From Candidatus Uhrbacteria bacterium (lineage in GTDB: Bacteria; Patescibacteriota; Patescibacteriia; UBA9934; GWF2-40-263), in contig JACPHU010000006.1 of the NCBI GenBank assembly GCA_016188495.1, positions 1,857 to 65,856 on the forward strand: a stretch of 64,000 nt of DNA, written 5' to 3'. A program made the translations under genes and the position numbers. The notes under the pieces are model-generated. The model was not told the origin of the DNA and did not search any database. It saw nothing but the letters and a program-made list of their open reading frames with translations. Positions 11,576 to 56,286 of the stretch are shown in pieces (the stretch's first letter is position 1; the number at the start of each line of letters is the position of its first letter).

Positions 11576-13849
11576 TTATGAGATCAATTTTTGTGTGCCT
11601 ATTTTCGCCGCCATGCCTTCAGACGGGATACTGACGACAAACGTGGATCCTTCTCCTATTTTGGAGTTGAAGCGAATAGTGCCTCCGGTATGGTTTAAGA
11701 TGGATTTGACGAGATAGAGTCCAAGGCCTGTACCATCCACATCTATTTCTTTGGCATTATCCGCTCGGAAGAGTTTTTTAAAAATATGTTCCTGTTGCAT
11801 TTTGGGAATCCCTATTCCCGTATCTGTGACGCGAATAAAAAAGTCTTTTTCGTCTTTTCGAATTTCACATTCTATTTTTCCATCGTGAGGGGTATATTTT
11901 ACAGCATTCGAGAGGAGGTTTTGGAAGATGATCATCGTGAGTTTCGGATCAACAGAGACCAAAGGGATGGTTTCATCAAACATGGTTTGTATGACCAGAT
12001 GCTTTTCTTTGATGATTGGATCGAGTTCTTGAAGAATGGTCTGTGCTATGGAATTAAGATTCGTTGGCTGCGGTTCAACCGTAAAGGTTCCTAATTCAAT
12101 TTTTGATACGTCCAGAAGAGCATTGATGAGCAAGGTCATTCGTTGGGTGCTCGCGTAGATTTCTTGGATGGTTGTTTTTTGTTCTTCTCCCAAATTTCCT
12201 TTATCACCTGCAAGAAGCATTTCCGCATTCCATTTGATAGAAGTAAGAGGTGTGCGCATTTGATGGCTGGCTAAAGAGACAAATTGCGATTTTGCGCGAT
12301 CTATCTCATCTTCCTTTGTGATATCCATACATATTCCAAACATTTTTAGAGCCTCCCTTTGTTCGTTGCGTTGAATATGTCCTATGGCCCGTATCGTGAC
12401 CGTTTCTTGGTTTCGAAGGATTCTAAATTTTATATCCATTTTTTTTTGCGGTTGTTCTATCGCGTCTTGGACTTGATGCACCAGACGATCGCGATCATCC
12501 GGATGCAGGATAGAGATCCAAGTTTGAAAAACCCCTTTCTCTCCCTTTTTTAAGTCTATGCCAAAAAGTTCTTCCAATAAATTGTCGTTTAAGAGAGTGT
12601 CTGTCAGCACATTCCATTCCCATGTCGCGATATTGGCTGACGTTGTCGCTAAAATAAAATGCTCATTGAGCTCTTCAAATTTGTTCTGCTGGTATTTGAT
12701 TTCCGTTATATCTTCTTCTGAAGCAATAAACCCGATCATATTTTGGTTTTCGTCAAAGATCGGACTATTGTGCACGATCGCGTAATAGATTTCACCGTTT
12801 TTTTTTCGATTGGTGATTTCTGTCGTGCTTGGGATGCCGCCGGTTTTCATGCGCCAAAAATTTTCATAGAATTCAACAGGCATGAGTCCGCCCCAGAGCC
12901 TGGGTGTATTGCCGATCATTTCATCTAACGTAAATCCTGTAATCTTTTCGGCCGCCTTATTGGCATAGTAGATCGTTCCATGTATGTCCGTGATCATGGT
13001 ATGGCTGCTTGAACTATCCAACGCTGTTCGAAAAATATCATTTTCTGTCATGGGCAGCGTCTTTTTTTGCGCGTCGTCGTTTTTAGTGAGAGCTTTAAAA
13101 AAATCCGCATTTTTTATGGAAGGATAATGTTCTTCAAAAACGCATTGCGAAGGATTGATGTGATGTTGCATCAGTATGCGATAGGCGTGGTCGATGAATT
13201 TTTGCGGTCCGCTTATGAGAAAGAGGGAATGGGCAAGATTATGTATCTGTGAAAGATCTGAGAATTGGAATAAACTAGTAGAGACTGATGCGGTATTTCC
13301 TTTTTGATTGAAAAGTTCTATTTCTTCTTCGTAAGGGGTCCGGTTTTTATTACGGTCGTAATGATAGAAATGGATCGGTTCAGCATAGGTTGAAAGGGCG
13401 CGCGTGCGCATGATGCATAGGAAAGGCGCCATCGCCACGCCTCCGGAAAGAAGGACGAGAGGATATTGGAATTCTTTTTTAAGTTGGAAGGAAATTCCAA
13501 ATGGACCGATAATCGTGACAGGGCTTTCTGGAGCAAGAGCAAGAAGCGTCTGTTTAAATCCACTCTCGCTTTTTCGGAAAAGAATTTGAATCGTTGTTTG
13601 TCCGATTTTAGGAGGATTGATGATAGAAAAAGCGCGACGGGATCCTTTTGGATCGGGAGCTATCAAACGAGGAAGATCCAACCACACGTATTGTCCAGCC
13701 AGATAGCTTATCGGATGTTCTAATTTGAACGTCGCTTCAAACGTATCCTCGGCCACTTCGATGCATTTTTTGAATCGGGCCGCAACATGTCTGTTGTCGT
13801 GCGTAAGCGTTATCATAAAAAGAAAATAAAAATCCATTATTGTATCCAC
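11576..13849 (-). CDS. Cytoplasmic hybrid sensor histidine kinase: N-terminal FNR-like FAD/NAD(P)-binding oxidoreductase module, two PAS domains, HisKA and HATPase_c
   Basis: FNR-like motifs are AGQYVWLDL, RRAFSIINPP and LLSGGVAMAPF. Two PAS segments follow. The H-box is SHQMRTPLTSIKWNAEMLL and the G-boxes are DTGIGIP...GTGLGLYLV. No TM segment is present. The first codon is GTG, with an in-frame ATG at 13837. Confidence 0.85.
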   Translation of the reverse strand: MDTIMDFYFLFMITLTHDNRHVAARFKKCIEVAEDTFEATFKLEHPISYLAGQYVWLDLPRLIAPDPKGSRRAFSIINPPKIGQTTIQILFRKSESGFKQTLLALAPESPVTIIGPFGISFQLKKEFQYPLVLLSGGVAMAPFLCIMRTRALSTYAEPIHFYHYDRNKNRTPYEEEIELFNQKGNTASVSTSLFQFSDLSQIHNLAHSLFLISGPQKFIDHAYRILMQHHINPSQCVFEEHYPSIKNADFFKALTKNDDAQKKTLPMTENDIFRTALDSSSSHTMITDIHGTIYYANKAAEKITGFTLDEMIGNTPRLWGGLMPVEFYENFWRMKTGGIPSTTEITNRKKNGEIYYAIVHNSPIFDENQNMIGFIASEEDITEIKYQQNKFEELNEHFILATTSANIATWEWNVLTDTLLNDNLLEELFGIDLKKGEKGVFQTWISILHPDDRDRLVHQVQDAIEQPQKKMDIKFRILRNQETVTIRAIGHIQRNEQREALKMFGICMDITKEDEIDRAKSQFVSLASHQMRTPLTSIKWNAEMLLAGDKGNLGEEQKTTIQEIYASTQRMTLLINALLDVSKIELGTFTVEPQPTNLNSIAQTILQELDPIIKEKHLVIQTMFDETIPLVSVDPKLTMIIFQNLLSNAVKYTPHDGKIECEIRKDEKDFFIRVTDTGIGIPKMQQEHIFKKLFRADNAKEIDVDGTGLGLYLVKSILNHTGGTIRFNSKIGEGSTFVVSIPSEGMAAKIGTQKLIS

Positions 13850-14711: not shown

Positions 14712-16544
14712 ATGGCAAGTCGGAGGATTCGATTTAAATTGATCGCGACATTCTTTTTTATTTCTCTTTTCTCTGTTTCCATTATTGGTATTTTAGTTTT
14801 TTTTGCCGATCGATCCAGTTTGTTATCCGAAACAGAAGTCTCTTTGCAGGTTATTGCCAATACCCAATCTCAGGACATTCAACATTTTTTTTCTCAGCTT
14901 GAAACACGGGCGATCGATTTTTCTTCGGATGGATTTATCCGAGAGTCGACAAAGACTCTGACTCAGGAATCAAATGAAAAGGTAAAGGAAGAATTGGTCC
15001 AACATTTACGCAATAATAAGTTGCCTCTGGATGCTTCTCTTTTTGTTATCGAAGTGTTTGATTTAAAAGGTTCTTTGCTTGCGACGACCGGATCTTATCA
15101 GGCAGCTTCTTTTGATGTTTCCAAACAGATACTTGAAAATCTTTCTCCGGACACGGCTGTTCTTTCCCCTTATCTTACACACGAATCTCCTCGGGGTCTC
15201 CAGAAGGTTCTTGTCGCTCTGGCGCCTATTGTCGATAAAGAAACAAATCAACGATTGGGGTATATTGCCAATCATTATTTTTTAGATTCCCTTACAGACA
15301 TTTTAAGGATGAAAAAAACGAATCCTTCCTTCGATCAATTACTTGGTTGGAAAACATTGGAATCCAATCTCGTGTCTTCAGGGGATGTGTTGATTGCCGT
15401 TTCCGATCCTGAAGACGAAAATTTTTTAAACAAAACAACAGACTTGCACGTCTTCGGAACGGTCTGCGGCAACACTGCCTCAGTACGCCAGTATATCAGT
15501 CATAATGGAAAGGAAGCGACCGGTATTGCCCATTGCGTAAATGCGAAAAACTACCTCATTGTCGAAGTTGAATCTCAAGAAATTTTTACGCGTTTGTTCG
15601 AGACGGTCAGAAACATGGTTGCCGTAGCCATAGTAACCGTTGTTCTTATGACGGTTCTGTCACTTTTTCCTGTTCGTAAGATCATCTATCCGTTGGAAGA
15701 ACTCCGCGGAGCCGTAAGGTATTTCGGGGAAGGGAAGGGATTGAGGAGTTTCGTTTATGATAAAAAAGATGAAATTGGAGAATTGTTCCAATCATTCAAA
15801 CAGATGACAGAGAATATTCAGATGGTTGAACAGCGACGTCGGGATTTTATTTCCATTGTTTCGCATCAGATGCGCACGCCATTGACGAGTATTCGTCTGT
15901 ATATGGAATTGTTGAGGAATTCTTTGAAACGGCCAAAGGTCGTCCAGAAAGAATTTATGGATAGTATCGACATTTCGGTCGATCAGATGACGCATCTGAT
16001 TAGTGATTTATTAAACGTATCGCGTATTGAAGCTGGAAAACTCCGTATCCATCCAGTTCTCGTAGACCTCTCCGAGATCATTGGACAGGTTCTTGAGGAG
16101 ATCTCTCCGTTGGCGCAACAAAGTCGCTGTACGATACATGTTACTTCAAAAAATCCTCTTGCTTCTGTGGTTCTTGATCGAGATTTTTTTCATCAAATTT
16201 TGCGTAATTTAATCGTTAACGCCATCAAATATAGTCGTGAAGATGTCTGTGAAGTTTCACTATTTGTCGATGAAATAAAAGAAAATAAACGTTCTTTCTT
16301 AAGGATTCGAGTTCAAGATGCAGGAATCGGCATTAAGCGCGAAGATCAAGCTCATATTTTTGAAAAATTTTTTCGTTCGGAAACGGCGAGGAAACGGAAC
16401 ACGGAAGGAACGGGTTTGGGGTTGTATGTGGCGAAAATGATCCTGGATCAGACAGGAGGTTTCATTTCATTTAAATCGGAGGAGGGAATCGGAACGGTGT
16501 TTACAGTCCTGATTCCAAAGACCGGCATGTCTTCTCAAAAATAG
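14712..16544 (+). CDS. membrane sensor histidine kinase (two TM helices, extracytoplasmic sensor domain, HAMP, HisKA, HATPase_c)
   Basis: TM1 is IATFFFISLFSVSIIGILVFF and TM2 is VAVAIVTVVLMTVLSLF. The H-box is SHQMRTPLTSIRLYMELL. The ATP-lid is DAGIGIK...GTGLGLYVA. Confidence 0.9.
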   Translation: MASRRIRFKLIATFFFISLFSVSIIGILVFFADRSSLLSETEVSLQVIANTQSQDIQHFFSQLETRAIDFSSDGFIRESTKTLTQESNEKVKEELVQHLRNNKLPLDASLFVIEVFDLKGSLLATTGSYQAASFDVSKQILENLSPDTAVLSPYLTHESPRGLQKVLVALAPIVDKETNQRLGYIANHYFLDSLTDILRMKKTNPSFDQLLGWKTLESNLVSSGDVLIAVSDPEDENFLNKTTDLHVFGTVCGNTASVRQYISHNGKEATGIAHCVNAKNYLIVEVESQEIFTRLFETVRNMVAVAIVTVVLMTVLSLFPVRKIIYPLEELRGAVRYFGEGKGLRSFVYDKKDEIGELFQSFKQMTENIQMVEQRRRDFISIVSHQMRTPLTSIRLYMELLRNSLKRPKVVQKEFMDSIDISVDQMTHLISDLLNVSRIEAGKLRIHPVLVDLSEIIGQVLEEISPLAQQSRCTIHVTSKNPLASVVLDRDFFHQILRNLIVNAIKYSREDVCEVSLFVDEIKENKRSFLRIRVQDAGIGIKREDQAHIFEKFFRSETARKRNTEGTGLGLYVAKMILDQTGGFISFKSEEGIGTVFTVLIPKTGMSSQK

Positions 16545-16622
16545 GACTTTCTCACTTGGTGCATAGCTTTGCCTGCCTACCGGCAGGTAGGCAGGCGCTC
16601 TGCATCCAATTGAGAAAGTCCT
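16543..16622. promoter_or_regulatory. nested palindrome between the kinase and regulator genes (17-bp outer stem plus GC-rich inner hairpin)
   Basis: The outer arms are aggactttctcacttgg and ccaattgagaaagtcct (1 mismatch). The inner hairpin is gcctgcctacc ggc aggtaggcaggc. It overlaps the kinase stop codon. Confidence 0.5.
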
Positions 16623-16640
16623 AAAGAATAAAATTTTTTT

Positions 16641-17036
16641 ATGAAACAGCAACGTCTTTTACTCGTGGAAGATGAAAAGTTGATCGCTCGCGCGTATCAG
16701 CTCGCTTTGGAAAAAGAAGGATACCTCGTAGATCTTGTCTATGACGGCCAACAGGCTCTTTCGGCCATGGATACATGCACCTATGATCTGATTCTTTTGG
16801 ATCTCATTCTTCCTCACATCGACGGATTCGAGCTGATGCAGCGAAAGAATACGCAAGGAGCCTGTAAGAACACACCAATCATCGTTCTTTCAAATCTCGG
16901 ACAAGAAACGGATATTGCCAAAGCGAAAGAGCTTGGTGCTGTTAATTATTTGGTAAAAGCAGATCATTCATTGAATGATGTTCTTCGGATCGTGAAGCGT
17001 ACGCTAGAAAAACATCAAGACCGTGGAAACGAATGA
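16641..17036 (+). CDS. single-domain response regulator (CheY-like receiver)
   Basis: Receiver motifs are LLLVEDEKLIARAY, ILLDLILPHIDGFELM and IIVLSNLGQETD. Its stop overlaps the pilB start (ATGA). Confidence 0.85.
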   Translation: MKQQRLLLVEDEKLIARAYQLALEKEGYLVDLVYDGQQALSAMDTCTYDLILLDLILPHIDGFELMQRKNTQGACKNTPIIVLSNLGQETDIAKAKELGAVNYLVKADHSLNDVLRIVKRTLEKHQDRGNE

Positions 17037-18742
17037 ATGCATCTATGACACTCACTTACCAAGCATTACAAGAGATTTTTGTGGATTCAGGAGCTGTTTC
17101 CCAAGAACAGTTCAATACATTACAAGCCACGAAAGAGGCGAAGGAATTGGGTTTAGAGAGAGTTCTTGTTTCTCGCGGATTTTTATCAGAAAAGGAAGTG
17201 GGACAGCTGATGAGTTTTTGGTATCGCGTGCCCTTTGTCGAACTTTCGAAAAAAGACATTCGTCCTCAAGACGTTGTGCTTTTGCCTGAAGCGTTTGCTC
17301 GCGCGCATCATGTGCTGGTGATCAGCCAGCAACCGGAACGAGTGATCGTGGCAAGTTCCACGCCGAAAGATACCGTATTACGCTCATCCTTAGAGAAATA
17401 TTTTCGTACAGAGGTTCAATTCCAGTATGCGACAGAACACGATCTGCGCCAGCATTTTTTCTTGTACCAAGAAGATCCCGATATCCGTATCCAATCCATT
17501 TTAAAAAGAAGTCCTGTCCCCCAAGAGCAGACGGATACGCGGGTGATCGATCTGATCGATGCGATTATCGATATGGGTTATCAACGCGGCGTTTCAGATA
17601 TCCATCTGGAACCAGAAGAAGCTTATCTGGTCATTCGGTATCGTCAGGACGGACTTCTTCATGATGTTGCCCGCATTCCAGAAGCCTTTCACGAGCGGAT
17701 CATGGCTCGATTAAAAGTCCTTTCGCGCTTGGCAACCGATGAGCATCGCAAAGCGCAGGACGGAAAGATTTCCCATAAAACCCCTTGGGGAAGCGATGTG
17801 GAAATTCGCTTGTCTATTCTTCCTACTACACAAAAGGAGAAGGCCGTTATGCGTCTGCTCTCTGAGCAGGCACAGGCGTATTCGCTGGTTGAGCTAGGTT
17901 TGCAAACGGGTGATTATCAGAAAATAGCAGATGCAATGGAGAAACCATGGGGAATGATTCTGGCAACCGGTCCCACGGGATGCGGAAAGACCACCACGCT
18001 TTATGCCATGCTTCAGGTGCTCAATCGACGGGAAGTCAATATCACCACCATCGAAGATCCGGTGGAGGTCGATCTGGAGGGAATCAATCAGATTCAAGTG
18101 GATGAAAAGACCGGACTCACCTTTGCAAAAGGATTGCGTTCTATCGTGCGGCAGGATCCGGATATCATCATGGTGGGAGAGATCCGGGACAGCGAAACGG
18201 CTAGTATCGCGATCAACGCGGCGATGACAGGACATCTGGTTCTTTCGACCCTCCATACCAATGACGCGGCAACGGCGTTCGTACGACTATTAGACATGGG
18301 AATCGAACCGTTCCTTCTCTCTTCGACCGTCAATGTTGTGGTCGCTCAGCGTTTGGTACGCAAAGTCTGTATGAATTGCATCGAATCCGTGACGTTTAAT
18401 GGGACCCAGAAAAAACTATTAGAAAAGACTCCCCAAATCCAGCCTCTGCTTCTTCGGCTTGCCCAGAAGGCAACCGTACGCGGGTTGAGGGTGTTTCACG
18501 GAAAAGGATGTAAGGTATGCCACGGGAGCGGATATAAGGGACGCATAGGGGTTTTTGAAACATTGGTTGTGACAGATGAAATCCGTGAAGCGGTGATGAC
18601 GAAAAAACACGCAGACGAAATTGAGCAAATAGCCATCAGAGAAGGGATGGATTCCATGCTTACGGATGGTTTGCGCAAAGCCTTATTAGGACAAACAACG
18701 CTTGAGGAGGTTTTACGTGTGGTTTATGAAGAAGTTTTATGA
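17033..18742 (+). CDS. pilB: type IV pilus assembly ATPase PilB/GspE family
   Basis: Walker A is GPTGCGKTTTLYAML. An Asp box, Walker B (IIMVGEIRD), a His box and a C-terminal tetracysteine motif (CMNC...CKVCHGSG) are present. Confidence 0.9.
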   Translation: MNASMTLTYQALQEIFVDSGAVSQEQFNTLQATKEAKELGLERVLVSRGFLSEKEVGQLMSFWYRVPFVELSKKDIRPQDVVLLPEAFARAHHVLVISQQPERVIVASSTPKDTVLRSSLEKYFRTEVQFQYATEHDLRQHFFLYQEDPDIRIQSILKRSPVPQEQTDTRVIDLIDAIIDMGYQRGVSDIHLEPEEAYLVIRYRQDGLLHDVARIPEAFHERIMARLKVLSRLATDEHRKAQDGKISHKTPWGSDVEIRLSILPTTQKEKAVMRLLSEQAQAYSLVELGLQTGDYQKIADAMEKPWGMILATGPTGCGKTTTLYAMLQVLNRREVNITTIEDPVEVDLEGINQIQVDEKTGLTFAKGLRSIVRQDPDIIMVGEIRDSETASIAINAAMTGHLVLSTLHTNDAATAFVRLLDMGIEPFLLSSTVNVVVAQRLVRKVCMNCIESVTFNGTQKKLLEKTPQIQPLLLRLAQKATVRGLRVFHGKGCKVCHGSGYKGRIGVFETLVVTDEIREAVMTKKHADEIEQIAIREGMDSMLTDGLRKALLGQTTLEEVLRVVYEEVL

Positions 18743-19825
18743 AAAAACATGATCAACCTTGGTATAAACGCCAGATCGATTTGTTTCCGGTGCCGCAGAC
18801 GCAGATCGTTTCCTTGGTAAAAAATTTTTCTATTATGCTCGAGGCGGGAATTGCTGTGCCGGAAGCGATTGAGGTTCTCGTTGACCAGTCGTCTGGTACG
18901 CTCAAGAGCGTCATGAAAACGGTTTCTGTGCGGCTTTCGTCAGGAGAGCGTCTTTGGGAGGCATTTTCTCATGCGCAACGAGTTTTTTCTCCGATTTTTT
19001 TAAGCGCGGTACAGGCAGGAGAGGCTTCTGGAACGCTCGCGGGAAATCTGTCTCATGTTGCCGCGCAGATGGAACAAGACTCGTCTCTTAGGCGTTCTAT
19101 TGAAGGGGCTCTTTTGTATCCCGGCGTCGTGGTGTCCGCCACGCTTATTCTCGGATTATTATTGGCAACATTCGTTTTGCCCGAACTCGCTTCCGTTTTC
19201 GCTTCGTTGAATATGCCCCTTCCTTGGAGCACAAAAACGCTTCTGTGGCTTGCCGGCATGTTTGCCCAAGACGGCTATTGGCTGACTCCGCTGCTTATTT
19301 TTTCTCTCTTCGGTTTGGTTGTTTTATGGCGCCAGCGCTTTTTGTCGCCTGTTACAGATGTTATCATTTTGCGTTTACCGGGATTAGGTCTTTTTTTTTC
19401 ACAATATCGCTCGGGCGCATTTTTGCCGAGGCATGGGCACGTTGCTTGAATCCGGAATTCCACTACAAGAAGCATTGCAGATTCAGGTCCAATCGATAGA
19501 GAATCATGCCTATCAACGGTCAGTGCTATCGATGGTTGACCAGGTTGCCTCCGGAGAAGGATTCGCGCAAGCGCTCGCCCGATATCCCCGTCTTTTTCCT
19601 CTTTTGATCCAGCGGATGGTTTTTGTCGGAGAACATTCAGGCAGACTCGACCAGCTCTTCTTTTTTCTCGCCCGATTTTATGAAGAAGATGTATCGTTGC
19701 GGGCAAAAAATCTTTCTTCGGTTATTGAGCCTCTCTTGCTAATGGTGATCGGTCTTGGGGTCGCGTTTGTCGCTTTTTCTATTTTTACGCCTATTTATTC
19801 CATTACCAGCGGTCTGGGCTTATGA
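18739..19825 (+). CDS. pilC: type IV pilus platform protein PilC/GspF, interrupted by a +1 frameshift inside a T9 homopolymer (19391-19399)
   Basis: The ORF-track pieces 18739-19449 and 19433-19825 are consecutive GspF domains. The upstream frame reads LPGLGLFF. The downstream frame, read back from 19433, gives FFFHNIARAHFCRGMGTLLESGIPLQEALQI. Joined, they give a canonical PilC junction. Confidence 0.8.
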
Positions 19826-20259
19826 GAGCTCAAGGAGGATTTACCATGATCGAACTTCTGATGAGTCTGGCGATCGCAGGCATTGTTTTGGCAGTTTCGC
19901 CTCTGACGTTTGGTTCTTTTCAGGAACAACACCAGATAGAGTTCGCTGTGCAGGCAAGCGCACAGGCATTGAGAAGAGCTCAGATACAGGCTCAAGCAGT
20001 GGCAAACGACCAAACATGGGGAGTCTTTTTTCAAAATGGAAGTGTGACGATTTTTCAGGGTTCAAGCTATGCAGCGCGCAACAGCGCTTTTGATGAGGAT
20101 CAACAGATTGCGCCGGAGGTGACCCTGGGAGGTGTTGCGGAGGTAGTCTACAGTAAACTGACCGGCGAACCTCAAACAACAGGAGTCATCACATTTGAAA
20201 CCCTGCATGAAACACGAACGTTGACGCTCCTTGAAAAAGGGGCTTTATCCTATGACTAA
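19822..20259 (+). CDS. prepilin-type minor pilin/pseudopilin (N-terminal methylation motif)
   Basis: The leader plus hydrophobic helix reads GGFTMIELLMSLAIAGIVLAV, with Gly-1, Phe+1 and Glu+5. Confidence 0.75.
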   Translation: MRAQGGFTMIELLMSLAIAGIVLAVSPLTFGSFQEQHQIEFAVQASAQALRRAQIQAQAVANDQTWGVFFQNGSVTIFQGSSYAARNSAFDEDQQIAPEVTLGGVAEVVYSKLTGEPQTTGVITFETLHETRTLTLLEKGALSYD

Positions 20260-21649
20260 TCAAGGATTTTCTCTTGTGGAGGTGATAGTGGCGATCGCCT
20301 TGCTAGGCATTGTTGCTCTTGGATTTGTCCGGTGGTTGGTTGTCGCCCAGGAGAACGTGGTTTTTTCCGGACAACGCACTCGCGCACTGTTTCTTGCAGA
20401 AGAAGGTTTAGAGGCCGTGCGGAATATGCGAGATGACGATTTTTCTTTGTTGACAAACGGAACTCACGGGTTGGCTGTAAGCGGTTGGCAATGGATTTTT
20501 TCCGGATCGTCCGATACAACAGATCTTTTTACGCGAGAAGTGACGGTTTTCCCTGTGGATGCGGATCGTAAAGAAGTGATGTCACAAATTACTTGGAATC
20601 AAACACCTTATCGTTTAGCTTCATTAGAACTCGTGACGTATCTCACCAACTGGCAGGCGGGCAATGCTCAGCCTATTCCGATTACGCCGGACGCAACGTT
20701 GAATCTTGCCGGCCCTGCGAATGGGACGGAAGTCGCTCTTTATACGGATGGAGGAACGACTTATATTTTGCTCGGACGCGTTTCTTCTAGCGAAAAGGAG
20801 TTTTATGTGATCAATGTGTCAGATCCTTCCAATCCGGTTGTTACAGCCGAACTTGAAATTGGAAGCGATGTGAATGGTGTGGCGGTTGTCGGGTCTTATG
20901 CGTTTCTTGCCACGTCAAGCAATACGGCTGAACTTCAGGTCGTCAATCTTACGAATCCTGCGAGCCCCACCTTTGCAGGAAGTTCGAATTTAGCTGGAAA
21001 CGCAGATGCAATCACTGTTGTCGGACAAGGATCAAATCTTTATGTAGGGCGCGCGTCCAATAGCAGCGGGCCAGAAATTTTTTCCCTTTCGATTGCCACA
21101 CCATCGTCTCCGAGCGTGCTTTCGAGTTTGGAAGTGGGGGATAGTGTTTGGAAAATGGTTTTGGATCAAAGCGCAAGTTTTGTGTACGCGGCAACAGGAA
21201 GCACGACAGCAGAATTACTTATTGTGAATACAACGACACCATCCTCGATTGTTCAAGAAGGTGCATTAAATATTTCTGGAACGACAGACGCAACCGCGAT
21301 CGCCGTTTTTTCAACATACACAGCACTTGGAATGGACGATGGAAATTTTTATGTGGTTGATACGTCCACACCCGCCTCTCCCTTCCTTGCAAGTAGCGCG
21401 CTTGATATTGGAATCAAAATAAACGATATGGCCATGGGGGTGGACGATGACTATCTTTTTGCTGGAAGCGGAACCGTTAATACGGAAGTGGCGGTCATCA
21501 ATGTCAGCGATCCCTCATCGCCGACCATCTATTTTTCTGTTGATCTTGCAGGTAATGAAGCGAAAGGATTGATTTGGGATCAGACATTGAATCGAGTTTT
21601 CGGAGGCGGAACGGGGAATACGGAAGAATTTTTCGTGCTTATTCCTTGA
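20231..21649 (+). CDS. prepilin-type minor pilin fused to a beta-propeller made of LVIVD repeats
   Basis: The N-terminus is NQG|FSLVEVIVAIALLGIV. Five repeats of the LVIVD type follow: YVINVSDPSNP, LQVVNLTNPASP, LLIVNTTTPSS, FYVVDTSTPASP and VAVINVSDPSSP. There is a TTG start at 20231 and an alternative ATG at 20252. Confidence 0.75.
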   Translation: MKKGLYPMTNQGFSLVEVIVAIALLGIVALGFVRWLVVAQENVVFSGQRTRALFLAEEGLEAVRNMRDDDFSLLTNGTHGLAVSGWQWIFSGSSDTTDLFTREVTVFPVDADRKEVMSQITWNQTPYRLASLELVTYLTNWQAGNAQPIPITPDATLNLAGPANGTEVALYTDGGTTYILLGRVSSSEKEFYVINVSDPSNPVVTAELEIGSDVNGVAVVGSYAFLATSSNTAELQVVNLTNPASPTFAGSSNLAGNADAITVVGQGSNLYVGRASNSSGPEIFSLSIATPSSPSVLSSLEVGDSVWKMVLDQSASFVYAATGSTTAELLIVNTTTPSSIVQEGALNISGTTDATAIAVFSTYTALGMDDGNFYVVDTSTPASPFLASSALDIGIKINDMAMGVDDDYLFAGSGTVNTEVAVINVSDPSSPTIYFSVDLAGNEAKGLIWDQTLNRVFGGGTGNTEEFFVLIP

Positions 21650-21650
21650 T

Positions 21651-22163
21651 ATGAGTATTTTTGAACATAACAAGGGATTTACTCTCGTGGAGCTTGTGGT
21701 GTATATCGGTTTGGCTTCGATCGTCTTTCTTGCCGTTATCGGCCAACAGATGACGTTTTTACAGATGAGAGTGAAGCATCAGACGATTGCCCAAGTGGAA
21801 CAGGAAGGACAGTTTGTGATGCAGCTCATCACGCAAACGCTCAGGAATGCGCAAGCGATCAATAGTCCGCCTGCTGGATCGAGTGCCAGCATCCTTTCCA
21901 TAGACGTGTTTGACGCAGTAGATGATCCTACGGTGTTTGATGTTTCCGGCGGACAGATTCGATTGACTCAAGGGAGTGCTGCAGCCGTTGAGATAACTTC
22001 CGGATTATTAAGCGTTGCGTCTTTTACTATTGAGAACGTATCCCGTCTTGATACTCCTGGGTCTGTACGAATCCAATTTACTCTTTCACGGATCAATGCC
22101 GGGGGGGTGATTCCGTATGCGTATGAAAAAACTTTTTATGGTACAGCGTCTTTACGGCCATAG
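21651..22163 (+). CDS. prepilin-type pseudopilin
   Basis: The N-terminus reads KGFTLVELVVYIGLASIVFLAVI. Confidence 0.7.
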   Translation: MSIFEHNKGFTLVELVVYIGLASIVFLAVIGQQMTFLQMRVKHQTIAQVEQEGQFVMQLITQTLRNAQAINSPPAGSSASILSIDVFDAVDDPTVFDVSGGQIRLTQGSAAAVEITSGLLSVASFTIENVSRLDTPGSVRIQFTLSRINAGGVIPYAYEKTFYGTASLRP

Positions 22164-22566
22164 AAGATGGAGAGGAACGAATCAGCAGGGATTCGTTGTA
22201 TTGTTGAGCATGCTTATGTTAACAGTTGTCGGGATGGCGCTATTGAGCTCTCTGCTGTTGTTTGGGATCATGGATGTGCAGTCAAGTTTTTCTCTTGAGC
22301 AATCAGGCCAGGCGCGCGCTCTTGCAAATGCCTGCGCAGAAGAAGCGTTGCAACAGATCAACGACGCCGTTTCTTTTTCAGGATCGAGCAGTCTTTCGTT
22401 AAGCACAGGAACCTGTAATTATACGGTTATCAGTTTATCCGGTTCTCAACGAGAGATTGAATCTGTAGGGACGGTAGGATCTAGCGTCCGCAAGGTATTG
22501 GTAACACTCGACCAGATTAACCCAAATATTCACGTTACCTCTTGGCAGGAAGTGAGCGATTTTTAA
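22117..22566 (+). CDS. PilX-like minor pilin (start uncertain)
   Basis: A hydrophobic N-terminal helix QQGFVVLLSMLMLTVVGMALL is followed by a PilX_N-like GQARALANACAEEAL segment. It overlaps the upstream gene by 47 nt, so the true start may be internal. Confidence 0.55.
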   Translation: MRMKKLFMVQRLYGHRRWRGTNQQGFVVLLSMLMLTVVGMALLSSLLLFGIMDVQSSFSLEQSGQARALANACAEEALQQINDAVSFSGSSSLSLSTGTCNYTVISLSGSQREIESVGTVGSSVRKVLVTLDQINPNIHVTSWQEVSDF

Positions 22567-22573
22567 ATCAGAT

Positions 22574-23524
22574 ATGCCTATTTTTCCTATCGGAATCGGT
22601 ATCGATCTCTCGGACACGTATGTACATGTGGCCAAGGTGTCTTATTTTGGTCGGATCATAGAGGTACAGGAAAGAGAAATCCCTTCGGGATGGGTGGTCG
22701 ATGAGAAGGTGGTTGAATCTGAAAAACTCAAGTTTTTCTTACAAAAGAATTGTTTTTCACAAGAACAGATTCTCAGATCGCGCGTGGCAATCCTTATTCC
22801 TGAATCGAGAATGTTCCGGTGTTCACTTCGACTCCCTAAAGACAAGAAAAAGCCGCTGAGAAGTGCTGTTGTAGATTTAGCCCAAAGAGAGATTCCGTTC
22901 CCTTTGTCGTCAGCTGATGTTCTTATGAATTTTTCTCAACAGAAAAATGAGATGTTCGCTGACGTGGAGGCTGTTGAAGGCGAGGTGATCAAGAATCTCG
23001 TTGCCGCTGTTCCGCAGGAACATAACCACCTGAAGGTGGTGGAACCCCGTTCCCGGGCATTGTTGGATATGGCGAACATGCGCGGTTTATTACCTAGTGG
23101 TTTTGTTGGGTTTGTTGATGCCAATGAAAGATGGGTCACGATCACGATATTCAACAAAGGACAGGTCGTGTATTCCCGCGCGATCCGTCAGCCGATTTCT
23201 TTTGATCAAAACCAAAAAAAGGTCCCTTCCGTTTTCGTTGATTTTTTAAACGATCTCTTAGACGAAATCGTGTTATACTATCAAGAGGATCATAAGATGA
23301 TTGACCGTTTTATTCTTTCAGGTCTTTTTTTTACCGATCAGCGTTTCCGAGGACCATTCAAGACAAGTCATGGGGAGGTGAGAATAGAATTTATCGACGA
23401 TCTTTTTTCTCTGAAAGAGAAAAAAATACCACATCTTTTTTTTGGCATGGCGGCTATAGGAGCTGCATTTTCCGCTACGCGGTTCACAACGTTTTCTCGT
23501 CCATGTAATTTTTTTCGTCTATGA
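22574..23524 (+). CDS. pilM: type IV pilus assembly protein PilM (actin-like ATPase fold)
   Basis: The N-terminus IGIGIDLSDTYVHVAKV is the PilM signature. The length is 316 aa. Confidence 0.7.
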   Translation: MPIFPIGIGIDLSDTYVHVAKVSYFGRIIEVQEREIPSGWVVDEKVVESEKLKFFLQKNCFSQEQILRSRVAILIPESRMFRCSLRLPKDKKKPLRSAVVDLAQREIPFPLSSADVLMNFSQQKNEMFADVEAVEGEVIKNLVAAVPQEHNHLKVVEPRSRALLDMANMRGLLPSGFVGFVDANERWVTITIFNKGQVVYSRAIRQPISFDQNQKKVPSVFVDFLNDLLDEIVLYYQEDHKMIDRFILSGLFFTDQRFRGPFKTSHGEVRIEFIDDLFSLKEKKIPHLFFGMAAIGAAFSATRFTTFSRPCNFFRL

Positions 23525-24060
23525 GTACGAACACTAATTTTAAGCAAGGTTTTACCCTTGTCGAGCTTCTTATCGTGATTGCGATCGTGGCTATTTTGGT
23601 CGCCGTGATCTTTGTGGCGTTGGATCCTGCCACGCGTTTTTCCCAAGCGCGCGATGCTGTCCGTCAAAATGACGTCGGTGAAATTCTTTCCGCAATCAAA
23701 CTTTACCAGGTCGATAACGGAGGCGATCATCTGGCCAGTATTGCTGCTCTGACGCCGGGAGACGTTTATATGGCAGTCAACGGTGCTGTTATGACAACAG
23801 GTTGCGATGATGGTAATCTCAGTTGTGATACAGATGTCACAACTGATACGGCTTGTGTGAATATTGCCGGTCTTGTGACAGGGGGGTATTTAGCATCCAT
23901 GCCTGTGAGTCCTTCGGGTGATGTCGCGTGGGATGATGGAAGCGGCGCTGCAGATGATGGAAGCGGATATACTCTTTCTATTGATGCCAATGGTATCGTA
24001 GCTGTTCGTGCGTGTGAGAGTGAATATGCAAATAATTCTGAAATTCAAATCTCACGATAA
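23521..24060 (+). CDS. type IV major pilin (paralog 1)
   Basis: The N-terminus reads KQG|FTLVELLIVIAIVAILVAV. Two Cys pairs lie in the C-terminal D-region. Confidence 0.85.
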   Translation: MSTNTNFKQGFTLVELLIVIAIVAILVAVIFVALDPATRFSQARDAVRQNDVGEILSAIKLYQVDNGGDHLASIAALTPGDVYMAVNGAVMTTGCDDGNLSCDTDVTTDTACVNIAGLVTGGYLASMPVSPSGDVAWDDGSGAADDGSGYTLSIDANGIVAVRACESEYANNSEIQISR

Positions 24061-24066
24061 GTTCGT

Positions 24067-24597
24067 ATGCCTTACGTTAAGAAATTAGGTTTCACGCTTG
24101 TTGAATTGCTGATCGTGATTGCCATCATTGGCGTTCTGGTTGCTGTGATTTTTGTGGCGCTGGATCCTGCTACGCGCCTTGCGCAAGCACGTGACGCGGT
24201 GCGTCAAAACGATGTTGGAGAAATCCTTTCAGCGATCAAGTTGTATCAGGTAGATCATGGAGGACAGTCGTTAGATACGATCGCAAATCTTTCTCAGCTT
24301 GATGTCTATATGGCCGTCGATGGTGGCGGGATGAATGAAGGGTGTGATGACAATAATGTTTCTTGTACGACTCCTGTAACGCACGATACGCATTGCGTAA
24401 ATATTCATGAATTAATTCAAGAAGGATATTTGGCTGATATGCCCGTGAGTCCTTCCGGAGAGGTGATATGGGATGTTGGGGATAACACAGGTGATAACGG
24501 ATCAGGGTATACGATTTCTCTTGATACTGAGGGAATCGTGACCGTTCGTGCTTGTGAAAATGAGGCAACAAGTGTCGAAATTCAAGCTTCGAGATAA
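24067..24597 (+). CDS. type IV major pilin (paralog 2, tandem duplicate, about 65% identical to paralog 1)
   Basis: It reads LG|FTLVELLIVIAIIGVLVAV. The block structure is shared with the previous gene (DAVRQNDVGEILSAIKLYQVD, MPVSPSG, VRACE). Confidence 0.85.
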   Translation: MPYVKKLGFTLVELLIVIAIIGVLVAVIFVALDPATRLAQARDAVRQNDVGEILSAIKLYQVDHGGQSLDTIANLSQLDVYMAVDGGGMNEGCDDNNVSCTTPVTHDTHCVNIHELIQEGYLADMPVSPSGEVIWDVGDNTGDNGSGYTISLDTEGIVTVRACENEATSVEIQASR

Positions 24598-25016: not shown

Positions 25017-25091
<75 letters not shown>

Positions 25092-27412: not shown

Positions 27413-28910
<1,498 letters not shown>

Positions 28911-49976: not shown

Positions 49977-50054
49977 TAAACGGAAGTTTTGCTTCCGTTT
50001 TTATAATCCACTTGTAACAAAAAATCCTCACGTCACACACATGAGGATGAAGAG

Positions 50055-51146
50055 TCAGTGGAGCCAGGTTTGAAGATCGTGATAGGTCACGAAGACCGTC
50101 ACAGCAAACAGGATCAACACACTCGCGATGACACAACCGTCCACTATCGCTTCCGGGAGGGCGTAGCGTCTACCAAACAGGGCAGGGATGGTCAAAAGGA
50201 TTCGTCCTCCGTCCAGCACCGGAATCGGCAACAAATTGAAGAAAATGAGGGAAAGAGACAGTCCCCATCCGTATAGAAGCAGATCCGCGATCCCTTTTTC
50301 CGCTTCCTTCATGCCGATGCGGACGATTTCCACAGGCCCTCCTACTGTATTTTTGGAATCTTTTCGGAACAGGTCCGAGATAATTTCTGGAAGCTGCTGC
50401 GTGACGATCACCATGGTGCCAAGTGTAAATAGGCTGGCGGCGGGGACCGTCCATACGCTCGTCACCTTCCACGCCTGATCTTGTTTCATCGCAAAAGCGA
50501 TGTTCGTACCCTTGGGCACACGAATGATGATCGGCTCCGGTTCGTTTTCTCTCCGGAACTGTATAGCGAGCTCGGCAGAAGACACCTGTTCCAGAAGACG
50601 GAGAGTTTCTTTGGAAGTTGTGCAGGAATGATCGTTTACATGTTCCAGAACGTCTCCTGGGCGGATTCCTTGTGTGTAAAGCCACGAAACTTCTTTCATT
50701 TCCGAGACAAATACTTTCGGATCTGTGACCTGCACCATGTTCCGAAGTTCCGGGTGCTGTTCCAGAACCGCCTCGGCGTCGTGACGACCTCCAAGGGAGA
50801 GAAAGATCGTCATGATCATAATGGCACCGACCAGATTTCCCACGACCCCGCTAATCAAAATAACGATCTGTTTGAAGGCGGATGCCTCGACAAAAGCACC
50901 TGTCGGGTCTTCTCCCTGTTCCAGTTCCATTCGGTGCATCCCTTTCAGCGTGACAAATCCTCCCAGCCAAAAGAGCCGCAGAACCCACCGAGTGTTTCGC
51001 CCTTGGTATGACCAAAGAGCGGGACCCATCCCAAGGGAAAATTCTTTGACCTGGACGCCGCAGATTCGTGCGGCAAGAAAATGTCCGAGTTCATGGATGA
51101 AAATCAGGCAGGCCAACAAGGCCAGAATCGCGATAAAATCGTTCAT
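50055..51146 (-). CDS. rseP: RIP metalloprotease RseP (site-2 protease, M50 family)
   Basis: It has HELGHFLAAR (HExxH), a PDZ-like middle, and a C-terminal LDGG motif. An AAGGTGG RBS precedes ATG 51146. The ORF track extends 62 codons further upstream. Confidence 0.85.
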   Translation of the reverse strand: MNDFIAILALLACLIFIHELGHFLAARICGVQVKEFSLGMGPALWSYQGRNTRWVLRLFWLGGFVTLKGMHRMELEQGEDPTGAFVEASAFKQIVILISGVVGNLVGAIMIMTIFLSLGGRHDAEAVLEQHPELRNMVQVTDPKVFVSEMKEVSWLYTQGIRPGDVLEHVNDHSCTTSKETLRLLEQVSSAELAIQFRRENEPEPIIIRVPKGTNIAFAMKQDQAWKVTSVWTVPAASLFTLGTMVIVTQQLPEIISDLFRKDSKNTVGGPVEIVRIGMKEAEKGIADLLLYGWGLSLSLIFFNLLPIPVLDGGRILLTIPALFGRRYALPEAIVDGCVIASVLILFAVTVFVTYHDLQTWLH

Positions 51147-51338
51147 TGTGAGCCACCTTTTTGTTTTGTAGGTGTATAAAGGACGAAGAAGAACCTTGGT
51201 GAGATTGTATGAAATTCGCTGTCCTGTCAATGGACTTGACAGAGGGTTAAGAGGAGAGTAACTTAGTGTGTGTAAGACACTATAAAGCGTTTTACCCCAT
51301 AAAATAAGGAGACTTTTGGGTAACTTTGACACGTTCTA

Positions 51339-51367
51339 TTGACAAAAACACTGAAATCGGGTATAGT
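51339..51367 (+). promoter_or_regulatory. consensus sigma70 promoter driving the GC-rich island
   Basis: TTGACA, an exact 17-nt spacer, then TATAGT, followed by a ~160-nt leader. Confidence 0.55.
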
Positions 51368-51530
51368 GCTCTCTTCGTTCATTGGCAAAGTCTGGCTTGC
51401 CACGCCTTAAATACTCTTACATCAAAGTATTTAGAGCGCGGTAAGTCAGTAATAAAAAAAGTAGTTGATAGTCACCGGCATGGTTGTTGGTGGCTCAGAA
51501 ATCCAATCCCGAAAGGGAAGGAGAAAGCAA

Positions 51531-52613
51531 ATGTTGAATGAACAGTTCAAGGTCGCTCTGGTTGCCGAAGGTGTCAACGAGGAGAATCTCAAGCTCCTCG
51601 AGTCTCAGGAGCTGTGTGATGTCAGCGATTTCGCGACCCTGCAGCCTGCGGATCTGACTGTCGTCGGAATGAAGCTCGGTGGGATCAATAAGGTCTTCAG
51701 GGTTGTTCGAAGACTGGCGGCTCCCGTGGCCTCCACTCCGGCTCCGGAAGTTCAGATTCCCGTGACTCAGGTGACCCCGGTGTCCCTTCCTCCGGTCGTT
51801 CCGGTTCAGGTGGCTCCCGTGGCCCATGCTCCGGTTTCCTCCGGTGGGGGAGATCTGGGTACGCTGTTTTCGACGCTGATTCCGCCCCAGACCCCGCAGG
51901 AAGCGGCCGAAAGGCTCTGTCGTGCCCCGAGTGACGCAAAGAGCCAGGAGTACTGGAGGCAGTTCTTCGGTCAGGAGACCCTGATCGTCTCCTCGACTCC
52001 GGGCTCCATCGATCGCGACAAGACCATGGAAGCGGTCGAAATCTGGGTGACCTCCGGTGAGGCTCCTTCGGAGCTCGATGGAGTGCCTCTGCTGAGCATC
52101 AGCGAGTTCCTCCAGTCCACCTTCGGTGCGTGCCCCTTCACCGGGGACCGTATCATCCGAGGTGGGATGTCGCTGAAGACCAACGTTCACTACGGGTTCT
52201 TGCTCGGGAATGATGTTTCGCTCTCGGCGATCCAGAATAGCCCCGGAATGAACTTCGTGGCGTTCGCCGCCGAAACCGGCAAGATCACCCGCGACCTTCA
52301 GACCTGGAAGACGCGGATGCTCGAGCTTCGCAGCATGGTCCAGGGCAAGGATATCTCCAGCCCCACGGCCATCAAGGCGGCCGTCGCCGGATCCGCGTGG
52401 GATGAAGTCGCGACCGACTACATCCGTGACGCCAATTCCGGTGGTGTCGTCGCCATGCGCGCTCGGGCACGGCTGGTGACCCAGGCCAAGCGACGGACCG
52501 TTCGGGCCCGCAACGACCTGTCGGGAATCGGAGAGGCTCTGACCTCCGGTTTCGACAAGGTCACCCGCCAGGACGGCTCCGTCCCCCGTCGGGATTTCGA
52601 ATCCCGCGGCTGA
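51531..52613 (+). CDS. island gene A: hypothetical protein (small N-terminal domain, Pro/Val-rich linker, unknown C-terminal domain)
   Basis: A GGAAGGAG RBS precedes ATG 51531. Its GC3 is much higher than the backbone. The linker is APVASTPAPEVQIPVTQVTPVSLPPVVPVQVAPVAHAPV. A terminator follows at 52728-52752. Confidence 0.65.
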   Translation: MLNEQFKVALVAEGVNEENLKLLESQELCDVSDFATLQPADLTVVGMKLGGINKVFRVVRRLAAPVASTPAPEVQIPVTQVTPVSLPPVVPVQVAPVAHAPVSSGGGDLGTLFSTLIPPQTPQEAAERLCRAPSDAKSQEYWRQFFGQETLIVSSTPGSIDRDKTMEAVEIWVTSGEAPSELDGVPLLSISEFLQSTFGACPFTGDRIIRGGMSLKTNVHYGFLLGNDVSLSAIQNSPGMNFVAFAAETGKITRDLQTWKTRMLELRSMVQGKDISSPTAIKAAVAGSAWDEVATDYIRDANSGGVVAMRARARLVTQAKRRTVRARNDLSGIGEALTSGFDKVTRQDGSVPRRDFESRG

Positions 52614-52727
52614 TAGATCGATCAACTCCGTCGGTTCCGACCATGACGGCGCAAGGGTAGCACTCAGTGCCCGGTGTCTGGTTGGACCTTCGGCCATTAC
52701 TCTATTACCCCTACGAAGGGAGTCCCC

Positions 52728-52752
52728 TGGACTCCCTTTTTCACTAGGCGAT
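52728..52752 (+). terminator. intrinsic terminator after island gene A
   Basis: The hairpin gggagtcc/ggactccc is followed by a T6 run. Confidence 0.7.
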
Positions 52753-52856
52753 TTATTTTCAAAATGAATCGTGTAGCGAAAGCATGTAGGCTTTCAATCA
52801 GTATTTTAGATCGGTCCTTTTGGATCGATTGTGTTCACAACAAAGGAGAGAATTCA

Positions 52857-54014: not shown

Positions 54015-54164
54015 TTTCCGACGTAACACGGTCAAGATCGATTCCCACGGAGTCGGCCCTTGACCCTTTTCTTGGGAAGAGAAGAGGAGTAATCCTTTGG
54101 CTCTTCTGAAGAGAAGAAATTTGCTTTCGACCTTTACAAATGAAGTTGAGATAAGGAGGTTTAG

Positions 54165-55004: not shown

Positions 55005-55040
55005 AAATAGACGAAACATGAACGAAAAGGGAGAGAAAAA

Positions 55041-56180: not shown

Positions 56181-56188
56181 GGTAACAA

Positions 56189-56233
56189 CCCGCCCGACTG
56201 AACGACGAGGAGTTCTGTTCAGTCGTTCGGGCA
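56189..56233. repeat. family-A GC-rich hairpin repeat, copy 3, directly after island gene D
   Basis: It reads cccgcccgactgaacgacg-aggagttctg-ttcagtcgttcgggca. Confidence 0.7.
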
Positions 56234-56238
56234 AGCGC

Positions 56239-56286
56239 GGTCGAAGTGATTCCATAGGGAGTCATTTCGACCTTTTTTTGAAGAGA
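56239..56286 (+). terminator. intrinsic terminator
   Basis: The hairpin ggtcgaa...ttcgacc is followed by a T7 run. Confidence 0.65.

What the first reader, a model, noticed from the sequence alone, without database searches (positions are those of the whole stretch)
18739..19825. pilC split by a +1 frameshift in a T9 tract
The two ORF-track pieces are the two GspF domains of a single PilC. The upstream frame reads LPGLGLFF. The frame of the second piece, read back from 19433, gives FFFHNIARAHFCRGMGTLLESGIPLQEALQI. Joined, they give LPGLGLFFHNIARAHFCRGMGTLLESG, a canonical PilC domain junction.

The junction lies inside ttttttttt at 19391-19399.

This is either a homopolymer sequencing error, a pseudogene, or slipped-strand phase variation of the pilus platform protein. 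Taken with the C5 event at 60340, it raises the possibility of systematic homopolymer errors in this assembly.
Basis: seen in the sequence. Interest (0 to 1): 0.55.

Follow-up and report, generated by a model that had tools for sequence, protein, structure and literature searches.

The report
One-base slip breaks pilus gene pilC
In an uncultivated groundwater bacterium (Candidatus Uhrbacteria), the gene for the membrane platform of its type IV pilus is cut in two by one extra T in a run of T's; a nearly identical strain has the intact gene, so this is an ordinary, recent slippage mutation (or, less likely, a sequencing error), not a new kind of system.

Summary
T9 lies at 19391-19399 and splits a GspF/PilC-family gene into ORF A (18739-19449) and ORF B (19433-19825). 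T8 or T11 restores one ORF; T10 does not.

A strain 98.4% identical in DNA, from another assembly, differs by 54 substitutions and a single indel. That indel is T8 in place of T9, and it gives an intact 361-aa PilC. Two more distant orthologs also carry an in-frame T8.

Independent Logan assemblies of two sequencing runs reproduce T9 exactly, so an assembler artefact is unlikely. A read-level homopolymer bias cannot be excluded without the reads.

No other lesion is present in pilC or in the rest of the pilus operon, and ORF B is almost unchanged. The event is therefore young.

The "C5 event" at 60340 is not a homopolymer slip. It is the junction of a deletion of about 160 nt in an unrelated EAD1-domain gene. 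The other long homopolymers examined lie in intact ORFs. Systematic homopolymer error is therefore not supported.

Best reading: a real, recent T8-to-T9 replication slip that switches PilC off. Whether it is reversible phase variation or the start of gene loss needs read-level data.

The parts
19391..19399 (+). T9 homopolymer, the site of the frameshift; the ancestral state is T8 (codons CTT TTT TTT = L-F-F)
   Evidence: T8 is found at the same place in L001, L005 and L006.
18739..19449 (+). pilC piece A: first T2SSF domain plus TM1 and TM2. Native sequence runs to F220 (19398), followed by a 16-aa out-of-frame tail and a TGA stop.
   Evidence: Deposited as MBI2473223.1.
19400..19825 (+). pilC piece B reading frame: second T2SSF domain plus TM3. 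The mechanical ORF starts at ATG 19433 (residue M232). Codons 19400-19432 encode residues 221-231 and are not in either ORF product.
   Evidence: Deposited as MBI2473224.1.
17033..18742 (+). pilB-type assembly ATPase; its stop overlaps the pilC start (ATGA)
   Evidence: PF00437 E 2.8e-124 and MshEN. Best NCBIfam match is TIGR02538 PilB at 507 bits, below the equivalog cut-off. The overlap is seen.
19822..20259 (+). First pilin-like gene (N_methyl motif); its ATG overlaps the pilC stop (ATGA), so it is probably translationally coupled to the intact pilC frame
20231..24597 (+). Rest of the pilus operon, all uninterrupted: four further N_methyl pilin-like genes (20231-21649 with LVIVD/beta-propeller, 21651-22163, 23521-24060, 24067-24597), one ORF with no Pfam hit (22117-22566), and a PilM-like gene (22574-23524)
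14712..17036 (+). Sensor histidine kinase (HAMP-HisKA-HATPase) and receiver-only response regulator directly upstream of pilB
   Evidence: the same gene order is seen in the Logan contig.

Best explanation
A real and recent single-T expansion (T8 to T9), produced by slipped-strand mispairing during replication, lies in the conserved Leu-Phe-Phe tract of pilC. This gene encodes the inner-membrane platform protein of the type IV pilus of a Candidatus Uhrbacteria (CPR) strain. The extra base truncates PilC after F220, just after the second transmembrane helix. That removes the second cytoplasmic GspF domain and the third helix from the main product. It also uncouples translation of the downstream pilin genes. 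In the genotype that dominates these samples the pilus platform is therefore off, or at best leaky. Shown: the tract, the frame change, the T8 allele in a sister strain, reproducibility across assemblies, and the absence of further decay. Inferred: that the lesion is in the DNA and not in the reads, that it abolishes function, and that it can revert.
For: (1) L001, from a different assembly (GCA_040960375.1), is 98.36% identical over 3357 nt with 54 mismatches and exactly one gap. That gap is T8 versus T9, and L001 encodes an intact 361-aa PilC. (2) T8 is in frame in L005 (ATT TTT TTT) and L006 (GTT TTT TTT). The T8 repair aligns without a gap to 9 homologs, with H221 invariant; T11 would add a residue that no homolog has. 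(3) Logan assemblies of SRR12113419 (9879 nt) and SRR12113418 (1899 nt) are 100% identical to the window, including T9. (4) Two other T9 tracts and all 14 other A8, T8, G6 and G7 tracts that fall inside ORFs leave those ORFs intact, and no other homopolymer-split gene was found. (5) ORF B differs from L001 by only 1 synonymous and 1 non-synonymous change in 142 codons. If it had drifted neutrally since the split, about 5-10 non-synonymous changes would be expected (Poisson P of 0.0005 to 0.044). The amino-acid differences are conservative and are shared between both lineages. (6) ATGA overlaps at pilB/pilC and at pilC/pilin indicate translational coupling that the premature stop would break.
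Against: No reads were available, so a platform-level homopolymer miscall shared by both runs cannot be excluded. The two Logan assemblies may share a library type, or even reads, with the deposited MAG. Loss of function is inferred and not measured. The T8 version of this exact strain's protein is absent from the 15-billion-protein collection, so reversibility is unproven. pN/pS in piece A (0.53; 8 non-synonymous and 5 synonymous changes) is higher than in pilB (0.11). That could mean some relaxation of selection, though the counts are small and cannot be assigned to one lineage.
Confidence: 0.6

Rival explanations
1. Sequencing or consensus error: the true genome has T8 and the gene is intact. 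There is no biology here.
For: The lesion is a 1-nt length change in the longest homopolymer class of the window. The gene is otherwise pristine and nearly identical to an intact allele. Homopolymers are the classic site of indel miscalls (own knowledge).
Against: Three assemblies covering two runs agree on T9. The other two T9 tracts and all the other long homopolymers inside ORFs leave their ORFs intact. The only other broken gene is broken by a deletion of about 160 nt, not by a homopolymer. Related MAGs of this clade come from Illumina 150-bp paired-end data. On that platform a majority miscall at a 9-mer is rare (own knowledge). That the window belongs to that project is not verified.
Confidence: 0.15
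2. Adaptive phase variation: the T8/T9 tract is a contingency switch. It reversibly turns piliation off and on, and with it host attachment or DNA uptake, within the population.
For: The tract toggles the frame, and its length differs between strains only 1.6% apart. The T8 tract is kept in three lineages down to 67% protein identity. There are precedents in membrane components of related machines: flhA of C. coli, fliP of H. pylori, and the A/T tracts of flgR in C. jejuni (PMC3930126). Pili connect ultrasmall cells to hosts in the groundwater studied by He et al., and size fraction tracks attachment (PMC7906910).
Against: Tract conservation is largely explained by TTT codon bias: TTT is 65% of Phe codons, 9 of 16 conserved Phe columns are TTT in all three sequences, and other T6-T7 runs in the gene are conserved too. 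The tract sits in mid-gene at a conserved motif, not in a 5' leader. The 60% ortholog has lost it. No within-sample T8 allele of this strain has been assembled.
Confidence: 0.15
3. Recoding: the gene is frameshifted in DNA, but full-length PilC is still made in useful amounts. This would happen through RNA polymerase slippage on the U9/A9 run or through +1 ribosomal slippage of tRNA-Phe on UUU UUU U.
For: [quoted passage not shown] An A11 run rescues the split tssM1 of a type VI secretion system at 20-25% (PMC4256274). Shigella type III secretion genes use such sites. A +1 slip on the U run keeps full codon-anticodon pairing, which can be read directly from the sequence.
Against: The frameshifted arrangement is not conserved, because the relatives are in-frame T8. 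Rescue needs -1 or +2 nt in the mRNA, whereas slippage at A/T runs gives mainly +1 insertions and deletions are rare in homopolymers. A U10 transcript is still out of frame. The AGGU just upstream of the run is not conserved in L005 or L006, and no rare or stop codon follows in the zero frame.
Confidence: 0.07
4. The two pieces work as separate polypeptides, like the single-domain TadB and TadC platform pair.
For: Each piece holds an almost complete T2SSF domain (28-148, and 5-125 of 125). The break lies in a cytoplasmic linker between TM2 and domain 2. Single-domain platform pairs exist in Tad systems (own knowledge).
Against: Residues 221-231 (HNIARAHFCRG) are lost from both products, and they include four columns that are invariant in 10 sequences (H221, R225, C229, R230). 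Piece A gains a 16-aa aberrant tail. The ATG at 19433 has only a GAGG 1 nt upstream. All relatives encode one fused protein.
Confidence: 0.03

Closest known systems
PilC / GspF / PulF inner-membrane platform proteins of type IV pili and type II secretion (Pfam PF00482 x2; M. xanthus PilC in PDB 3jc8)
   Same: The repaired protein has two T2SSF domains and three TM-like segments. It aligns end to end with the GspF and PilC models (model positions 60-399 of 401) and with 3jc8 PilC (E 4e-40). It sits between a PilB-type ATPase and the pilin genes.
   Different: It scores below every NCBIfam equivalog cut-off (227 versus 424 bits for GspF; 187 versus 700 for PilC), so no subtype can be assigned. 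It lacks the roughly 60-residue N-terminal extension of the models. In this window the ORF is interrupted.
Phase variation of machine components by homopolymer slippage: flhA (C. coli), fliP (H. pylori), flgR (C. jejuni)
   Same: A short homopolymer inside the coding region of a core component of a surface-appendage machine; a 1-nt length change truncates the protein (PMC3930126).
   Different: In those cases reversibility and ON/OFF subpopulations were shown experimentally. Here only two alleles in two strains are seen, and tract conservation is explained by codon bias.
Neisseria PilC1/PilC2 poly-G phase variation (own knowledge)
   Same: The name, and the principle of a homopolymer switch affecting piliation.
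   Different: Neisseria PilC is the PilY1-like tip adhesin, not the GspF-family platform protein (which is called PilG there). The resemblance is in name only.
Transcriptional-slippage rescue of split secretion genes: tssM1 of Citrobacter rodentium (A11), Shigella mxiE, mxiA, spa13 and spa33
   Same: An inner-membrane secretion-machine gene interrupted at an A/T run long enough for RNA polymerase slippage (PMC4256274).
   Different: There the split form is the conserved, functional arrangement, and insertion of a base restores the frame. Here the relatives are unsplit, and restoration needs -1 or +2 nt.

Membership tests
GspF/PilC platform protein (PF00482) | Two tandem T2SSF domains in one polypeptide | tested here: met
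   The repaired protein gives 2 stretches with E 4.5e-50, and each piece carries one domain. In the window as it stands, the two domains are in different frames.
GspF/PilC platform protein (PF00482) | Three transmembrane helices, with the cytoplasmic domains before TM1 and between TM2 and TM3 | tested here: met
   A hydropathy scan finds TM-like segments at about 125-150, 180-197 and 329-352. Topology was not predicted with a dedicated tool.
GspF/PilC platform protein (PF00482) | Encoded next to the assembly ATPase and the pilin or pseudopilin genes | tested here: met
   A PilB-type ATPase lies upstream, with five N_methyl pilin-like genes and a PilM-like gene downstream.
GspF/PilC platform protein (PF00482) | Reaches a curated equivalog score (PilC versus GspF versus ComGB subtype) | tested here: not met
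   The best match is TIGR02120 GspF at 227 bits against a cut-off of 424; the PilC models give 187 and 169 bits against 700. Family-level membership holds, but the subtype is inferred from context only.
Phase-variable contingency locus (simple-sequence-repeat switch) | A repeat tract in the coding region whose length change toggles the reading frame | tested here: met
   T8 and T11 give an intact frame; T9 and T10 give a broken one.
Phase-variable contingency locus (simple-sequence-repeat switch) | Tract length differs between very close relatives | tested here: met
   T9 in the window versus T8 in L001 at 98.4% DNA identity, and this is the only indel in 3357 nt.
Phase-variable contingency locus (simple-sequence-repeat switch) | The tract is maintained beyond what codon usage would give | tested here: inconclusive
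   T8 is kept in 3 lineages, but TTT bias is strong and other T runs in the gene are conserved as well.
Phase-variable contingency locus (simple-sequence-repeat switch) | High-frequency, reversible ON/OFF mixture within one population | not testable with these tools
   This needs read pile-ups or culture. No T8 allele of this strain has been assembled anywhere.
Programmed transcriptional slippage / recoding site | The frameshifted arrangement is conserved among relatives | tested here: not met
   L001, L005 and L006 are in frame with T8, and L007 has no tract.
Programmed transcriptional slippage / recoding site | An A/T run of at least about 9 nt | tested here: met
   T9. The length threshold comes from PMC5574713.
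Programmed transcriptional slippage / recoding site | Heterogeneous mRNA lengths at the tract that yield the full-length product | not testable with these tools
   No transcriptome or proteome data are available here.
Split two-gene platform (TadB/TadC-like) | Both products retain all conserved residues and have their own start sites | tested here: not met
   Residues 221-231, including invariant H221, R225, C229 and R230, are in neither product. The evidence on a separate start site is uninformative.

The most novel reading that the evidence does not exclude
The T8/T9 tract in pilC acts as a reversible switch of piliation in an uncultivated CPR episymbiont. OFF (T9) cells would be the detached, planktonic form that dominates small-pore filters, and ON (T8) cells the host-attached form. 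This would be the first contingency locus described in the Candidate Phyla Radiation. It would link a genotype to the attached-versus-free lifestyle that He et al. inferred from size fractions.
Probability: 0.12. Interest if true: 0.6.

Novelty: new member of a known kind. Interest (0 to 1): 0.25.

Why it matters
Type IV pili are regarded as the organ by which CPR bacteria attach to their hosts; this view rests on PMC7906910 and on the titles and abstracts of PMC9894109 and PMC11623550. A dominant genotype with the platform gene switched off would therefore be a natural pilus-less variant, which is worth a look in the read data. In practice the result mainly tells annotators three things:

- MBI2473223.1 and MBI2473224.1 are two halves of one gene.
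- The assembly does not show a general homopolymer problem.
- The second "frameshift" in the window has a different cause.

Taken alone, a 1-nt homopolymer frameshift in a metagenome-assembled genome is commonplace.

Tried and rejected
- **Exact-pattern scans:** scans of genome contigs and metagenome contigs for the tract with its flanks, allowing T7 to T11, found nothing.
- **Degenerate-pattern scans:** a second pair of scans (T7 or longer plus CAC RAT ANC GCT CG) gave 10 loci. None has a tblastn match to PilC, so all are chance hits.
- **Systematic homopolymer error:** rejected. The 60340 site is a deletion junction. The overlapping pairs 30762/31825 and 40113/41054 are distinct genes: DHODH and TrmD, and DHH and ClpP. 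The pair 46458/47077 is a spurious arginine-rich ORF over a real membrane-protein gene.
- **T8 tract conservation as evidence of selection:** rejected as weak after the codon-usage test.
- **A prfB-like Shine-Dalgarno stimulator (AGGU next to CUU):** considered and dropped, because it is not conserved in L005 or L006 and is also present in the in-frame T8 strain.
- **Ribosome-binding-site test for a separate start of piece B:** uninformative, because few genes in the window have a clear Shine-Dalgarno sequence.
- **Tying SRR12113418 and SRR12113419 to He et al. 2021:** the run numbers do not occur in the held supplements. Only the MAG of the 60% ortholog (JACQSF) could be traced to PRJNA640378.
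- **Not done:** structure prediction and the representative-protein search were not used, because family assignment was already unambiguous.
Full report
**1. The observation**

The window reads C-T9-C at 19390-19400. ORF A (18739-19449, 236 aa) and ORF B (19433-19825, 130 aa) lie in frames 1 and 2 and overlap by 17 nt. Each carries one PF00482 T2SSF domain.

T8 or T11 restores a single ORF.

The break falls after F220.
- ORF A is 220 native residues plus a 16-residue aberrant tail.
- ORF B starts at M232.
- Residues 221-231 (HNIARAHFCRG) are in neither product.

Hydropathy places three TM-like segments at about 125-150, 180-197 and 329-352. The break is therefore in the cytoplasmic linker after TM2, at the entry to domain 2.

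**2. What the gene is**

The repaired protein aligns end to end with the GspF, HofC and PilC NCBIfam models, although it scores below their equivalog cut-offs. It also aligns with M. xanthus PilC in PDB 3jc8 (E 4e-40).

The gene order around it is as follows:
- a histidine kinase and a receiver protein upstream;
- a PilB-type ATPase (17033-18742);
- pilC;
- five pilin-like genes with N-terminal methylation motifs;
- a PilM-like gene.

The stop/start overlaps (ATGA) at pilB/pilC and at pilC/pilin point to translational coupling. The pieces are deposited as MBI2473223.1 and MBI2473224.1 of a Candidatus Uhrbacteria MAG, on a contig of 70,580 bp. Homologs are nearly all from Uhrbacteria and other Patescibacteria.

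**3. The decisive comparison**

The 90% protein cluster of the two pieces holds a third member, P0114, which is an intact 361-aa protein. Its contig L001 comes from GCA_040960375.1 and is 3357 nt long. It is 98.36% identical to window 17098-20455, with 54 mismatches and exactly one gap: T8 in place of T9.

Two more distant orthologs also have an in-frame T8, with only the first base of the run's leading codon changed. These are L005 (ATT TTT TTT CAC, 67% protein identity) and L006 (GTT TTT TTT CAC, 70%). The 60% ortholog L007 has no tract (GTT CTT GTG CAT).

The T8 repair aligns without a gap to nine homologs, whereas T11 would add a residue that none of them has. T8 is therefore the ancestral, functional state, and the window carries a +1 T.

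**4. Is T9 real?**

Logan assemblies are built independently from raw runs. Their contigs reproduce the window exactly, T9 included.
- SRR12113419: 9879 nt, 100.000% identical.
- SRR12113418: two contigs, one of 1899 nt spanning the tract and one of 2348 nt ending at window 19275.

The assembly break in SRR12113418 lies at 19248-19275, beside an inter-strain SNP at 19259 and not at the tract. This suggests a mixture of strains there.

Within the window, the other two T9 tracts (12439, 12798) lie inside an intact 757-aa PAS histidine kinase gene. All 14 other A8, T8, G6 and G7 tracts that fall inside ORFs leave them uninterrupted.

The MAG of the 60% ortholog belongs to PRJNA640378. That project used Illumina 150-bp paired-end reads and assembled each filter separately. 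The window's MAG probably belongs to the same project, but I could not verify this.

Taken together, an assembler artefact is unlikely. A read-level bias common to both runs remains possible, and I put it at about 0.15.

**5. The supposed second homopolymer event**

The two ORFs at 59960-60364 and 60180-60890 are indeed one gene; the second piece has an EAD1 domain. However, the full-length homolog P0118 (366 aa) has 53 extra residues exactly between GVRCP and GLYEIS. The lesion is therefore a deletion of about 160 nt whose length is not a multiple of three. The C5 run is only where the junction happens to fall.

A partial paralog lies on another contig of the same MAG. Neither piece is in Logan, so a misassembly between the copies is possible.

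The other overlapping ORF pairs are separate genes or spurious ORFs. Systematic homopolymer error is not supported.

**6. Age and consequence**

The table gives the differences against L001.

| Gene segment | Synonymous | Non-synonymous | pN/pS |
|---|---|---|---|
| pilB | 24 | 9 | 0.11 |
| pilC piece A | 5 | 8 | 0.53 |
| pilC piece B | 1 | 1 | not meaningful (2 changes in 142 codons) |
| first pilin gene | 4 | 1 | 0.08 |

If piece B had drifted neutrally since the strains split, about 5-10 non-synonymous changes would be expected. The Poisson probability of seeing one or none is 0.044 to 0.0005. The frameshift is therefore much younger than the 1.6% divergence between the strains.

The amino-acid differences in piece A are conservative. 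When polarised with outgroups, they are shared between both lineages. I see no sign of long-term decay.

The premature stop removes domain 2 and TM3 and breaks the coupling to the pilin genes. I infer an OFF or strongly reduced state.

**7. Alternatives for how it works**

*Phase variation.* The tract toggles the frame and differs between close strains. Homopolymer switches are known in flhA, fliP and flgR (PMC3930126). But conservation of the T8 is largely explained by TTT bias: TTT is 65% of Phe codons, and 9 of 16 conserved Phe columns are TTT in all three sequences. No T8 allele of this exact strain has been assembled anywhere.

*Transcriptional or ribosomal recoding.* A 9-nt A/T run is slippery, and an A11 run rescues split tssM1 at 20-25% (PMC4256274). 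Three points count against it here:
- The relatives are unsplit.
- Rescue needs -1 or +2 nt.
- Slippage at A/T runs gives mostly +1 insertions (PMC5574713).

*Two working halves (TadB/TadC-like).* This is unlikely, because four invariant residues are lost from both products.

**8. Comparison with what is known, and novelty**

This is a GspF/PilC-family platform gene with an ordinary slipped-strand frameshift. It is a new instance of a well-known kind of event. Note the name trap: the phase-variable "PilC" of Neisseria is the tip adhesin, not this protein (own knowledge).

The only reading of wider interest is that the tract switches piliation in a CPR episymbiont. That can be tested directly on the public reads, by counting tract lengths per sample and per filter size fraction against the control tracts. 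I give that reading about 0.12.

**9. Verdict**

- Best explanation: a real, recent T8-to-T9 slip that inactivates pilC (confidence 0.6).
- Interest: 0.25.

Noticed in passing
window 59960-60890 (+): An EAD1-domain (effector-associated domain 1) gene is split into 134-aa and 192/236-aa pieces. Compared with the 366-aa homolog P0118, it lacks 53 residues exactly at the junction GVRCP|GLYEIS, so the lesion is a deletion of about 160 nt and not a C5 slip. A partial paralog (HYV70_04610) sits at the end of another contig of the same MAG. Neither piece appears in the Logan assemblies, so a collapse between the copies is possible.
   Followed up: partly
window 27415-28910 (-): A complete 16S rRNA gene (1450 bits) stands alone. 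No 23S or 5S rRNA match reached the Rfam gathering threshold anywhere in the 64-kb window. The nearest tRNAs (Ile-GAT at 24805, Phe-GAA at 25017) are on the opposite strand. This indicates an unlinked rRNA arrangement.
   Followed up: no
window about 50000-57000: A GC-rich stretch (0.50-0.58, against about 0.44-0.46 elsewhere). It has long ORFs on both strands (51465-52613 + / 51495-52697 -, 52674-54014 + / 53010-54035 -, 54165-55004 + / 54207-55205 -). The ORFs that were scanned have no Pfam match. This may be foreign DNA or mis-binned sequence.
   Followed up: no
window 12439-12447 and 12798-12806 (gene on the - strand, 11576-13849): Two more T9 tracts (A9 in the sense strand) lie inside one intact 757-aa PAS/HisKA/HATPase sensor kinase gene. 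They serve as internal controls for homopolymer error, and they are themselves slip-prone sites.
   Followed up: partly
window 22101-22107: A G7 tract, the longest G/C run in the window, lies at the 3' end of the pilin-like gene 21651-22163, just before the overlapping next ORF (22117/22138-22566). It is another potential slippage site within the pilus operon.
   Followed up: no
L019 / L004 (window 19248-19275): In run SRR12113418 the Logan assembly breaks inside pilC, 115-140 nt upstream of the T tract and next to position 19259, which differs between the window and the T8 strain L001. This suggests that more than one strain of this species is present in that sample.
   Followed up: partly
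window 18739-19398 versus L001: Piece A of pilC has 8 non-synonymous and 5 synonymous differences from the sister strain (pN/pS 0.53), against 0.11 in pilB and 0.08 in the next pilin gene. The changes are conservative and are split between the two lineages, so the cause is unclear.
   Followed up: partly
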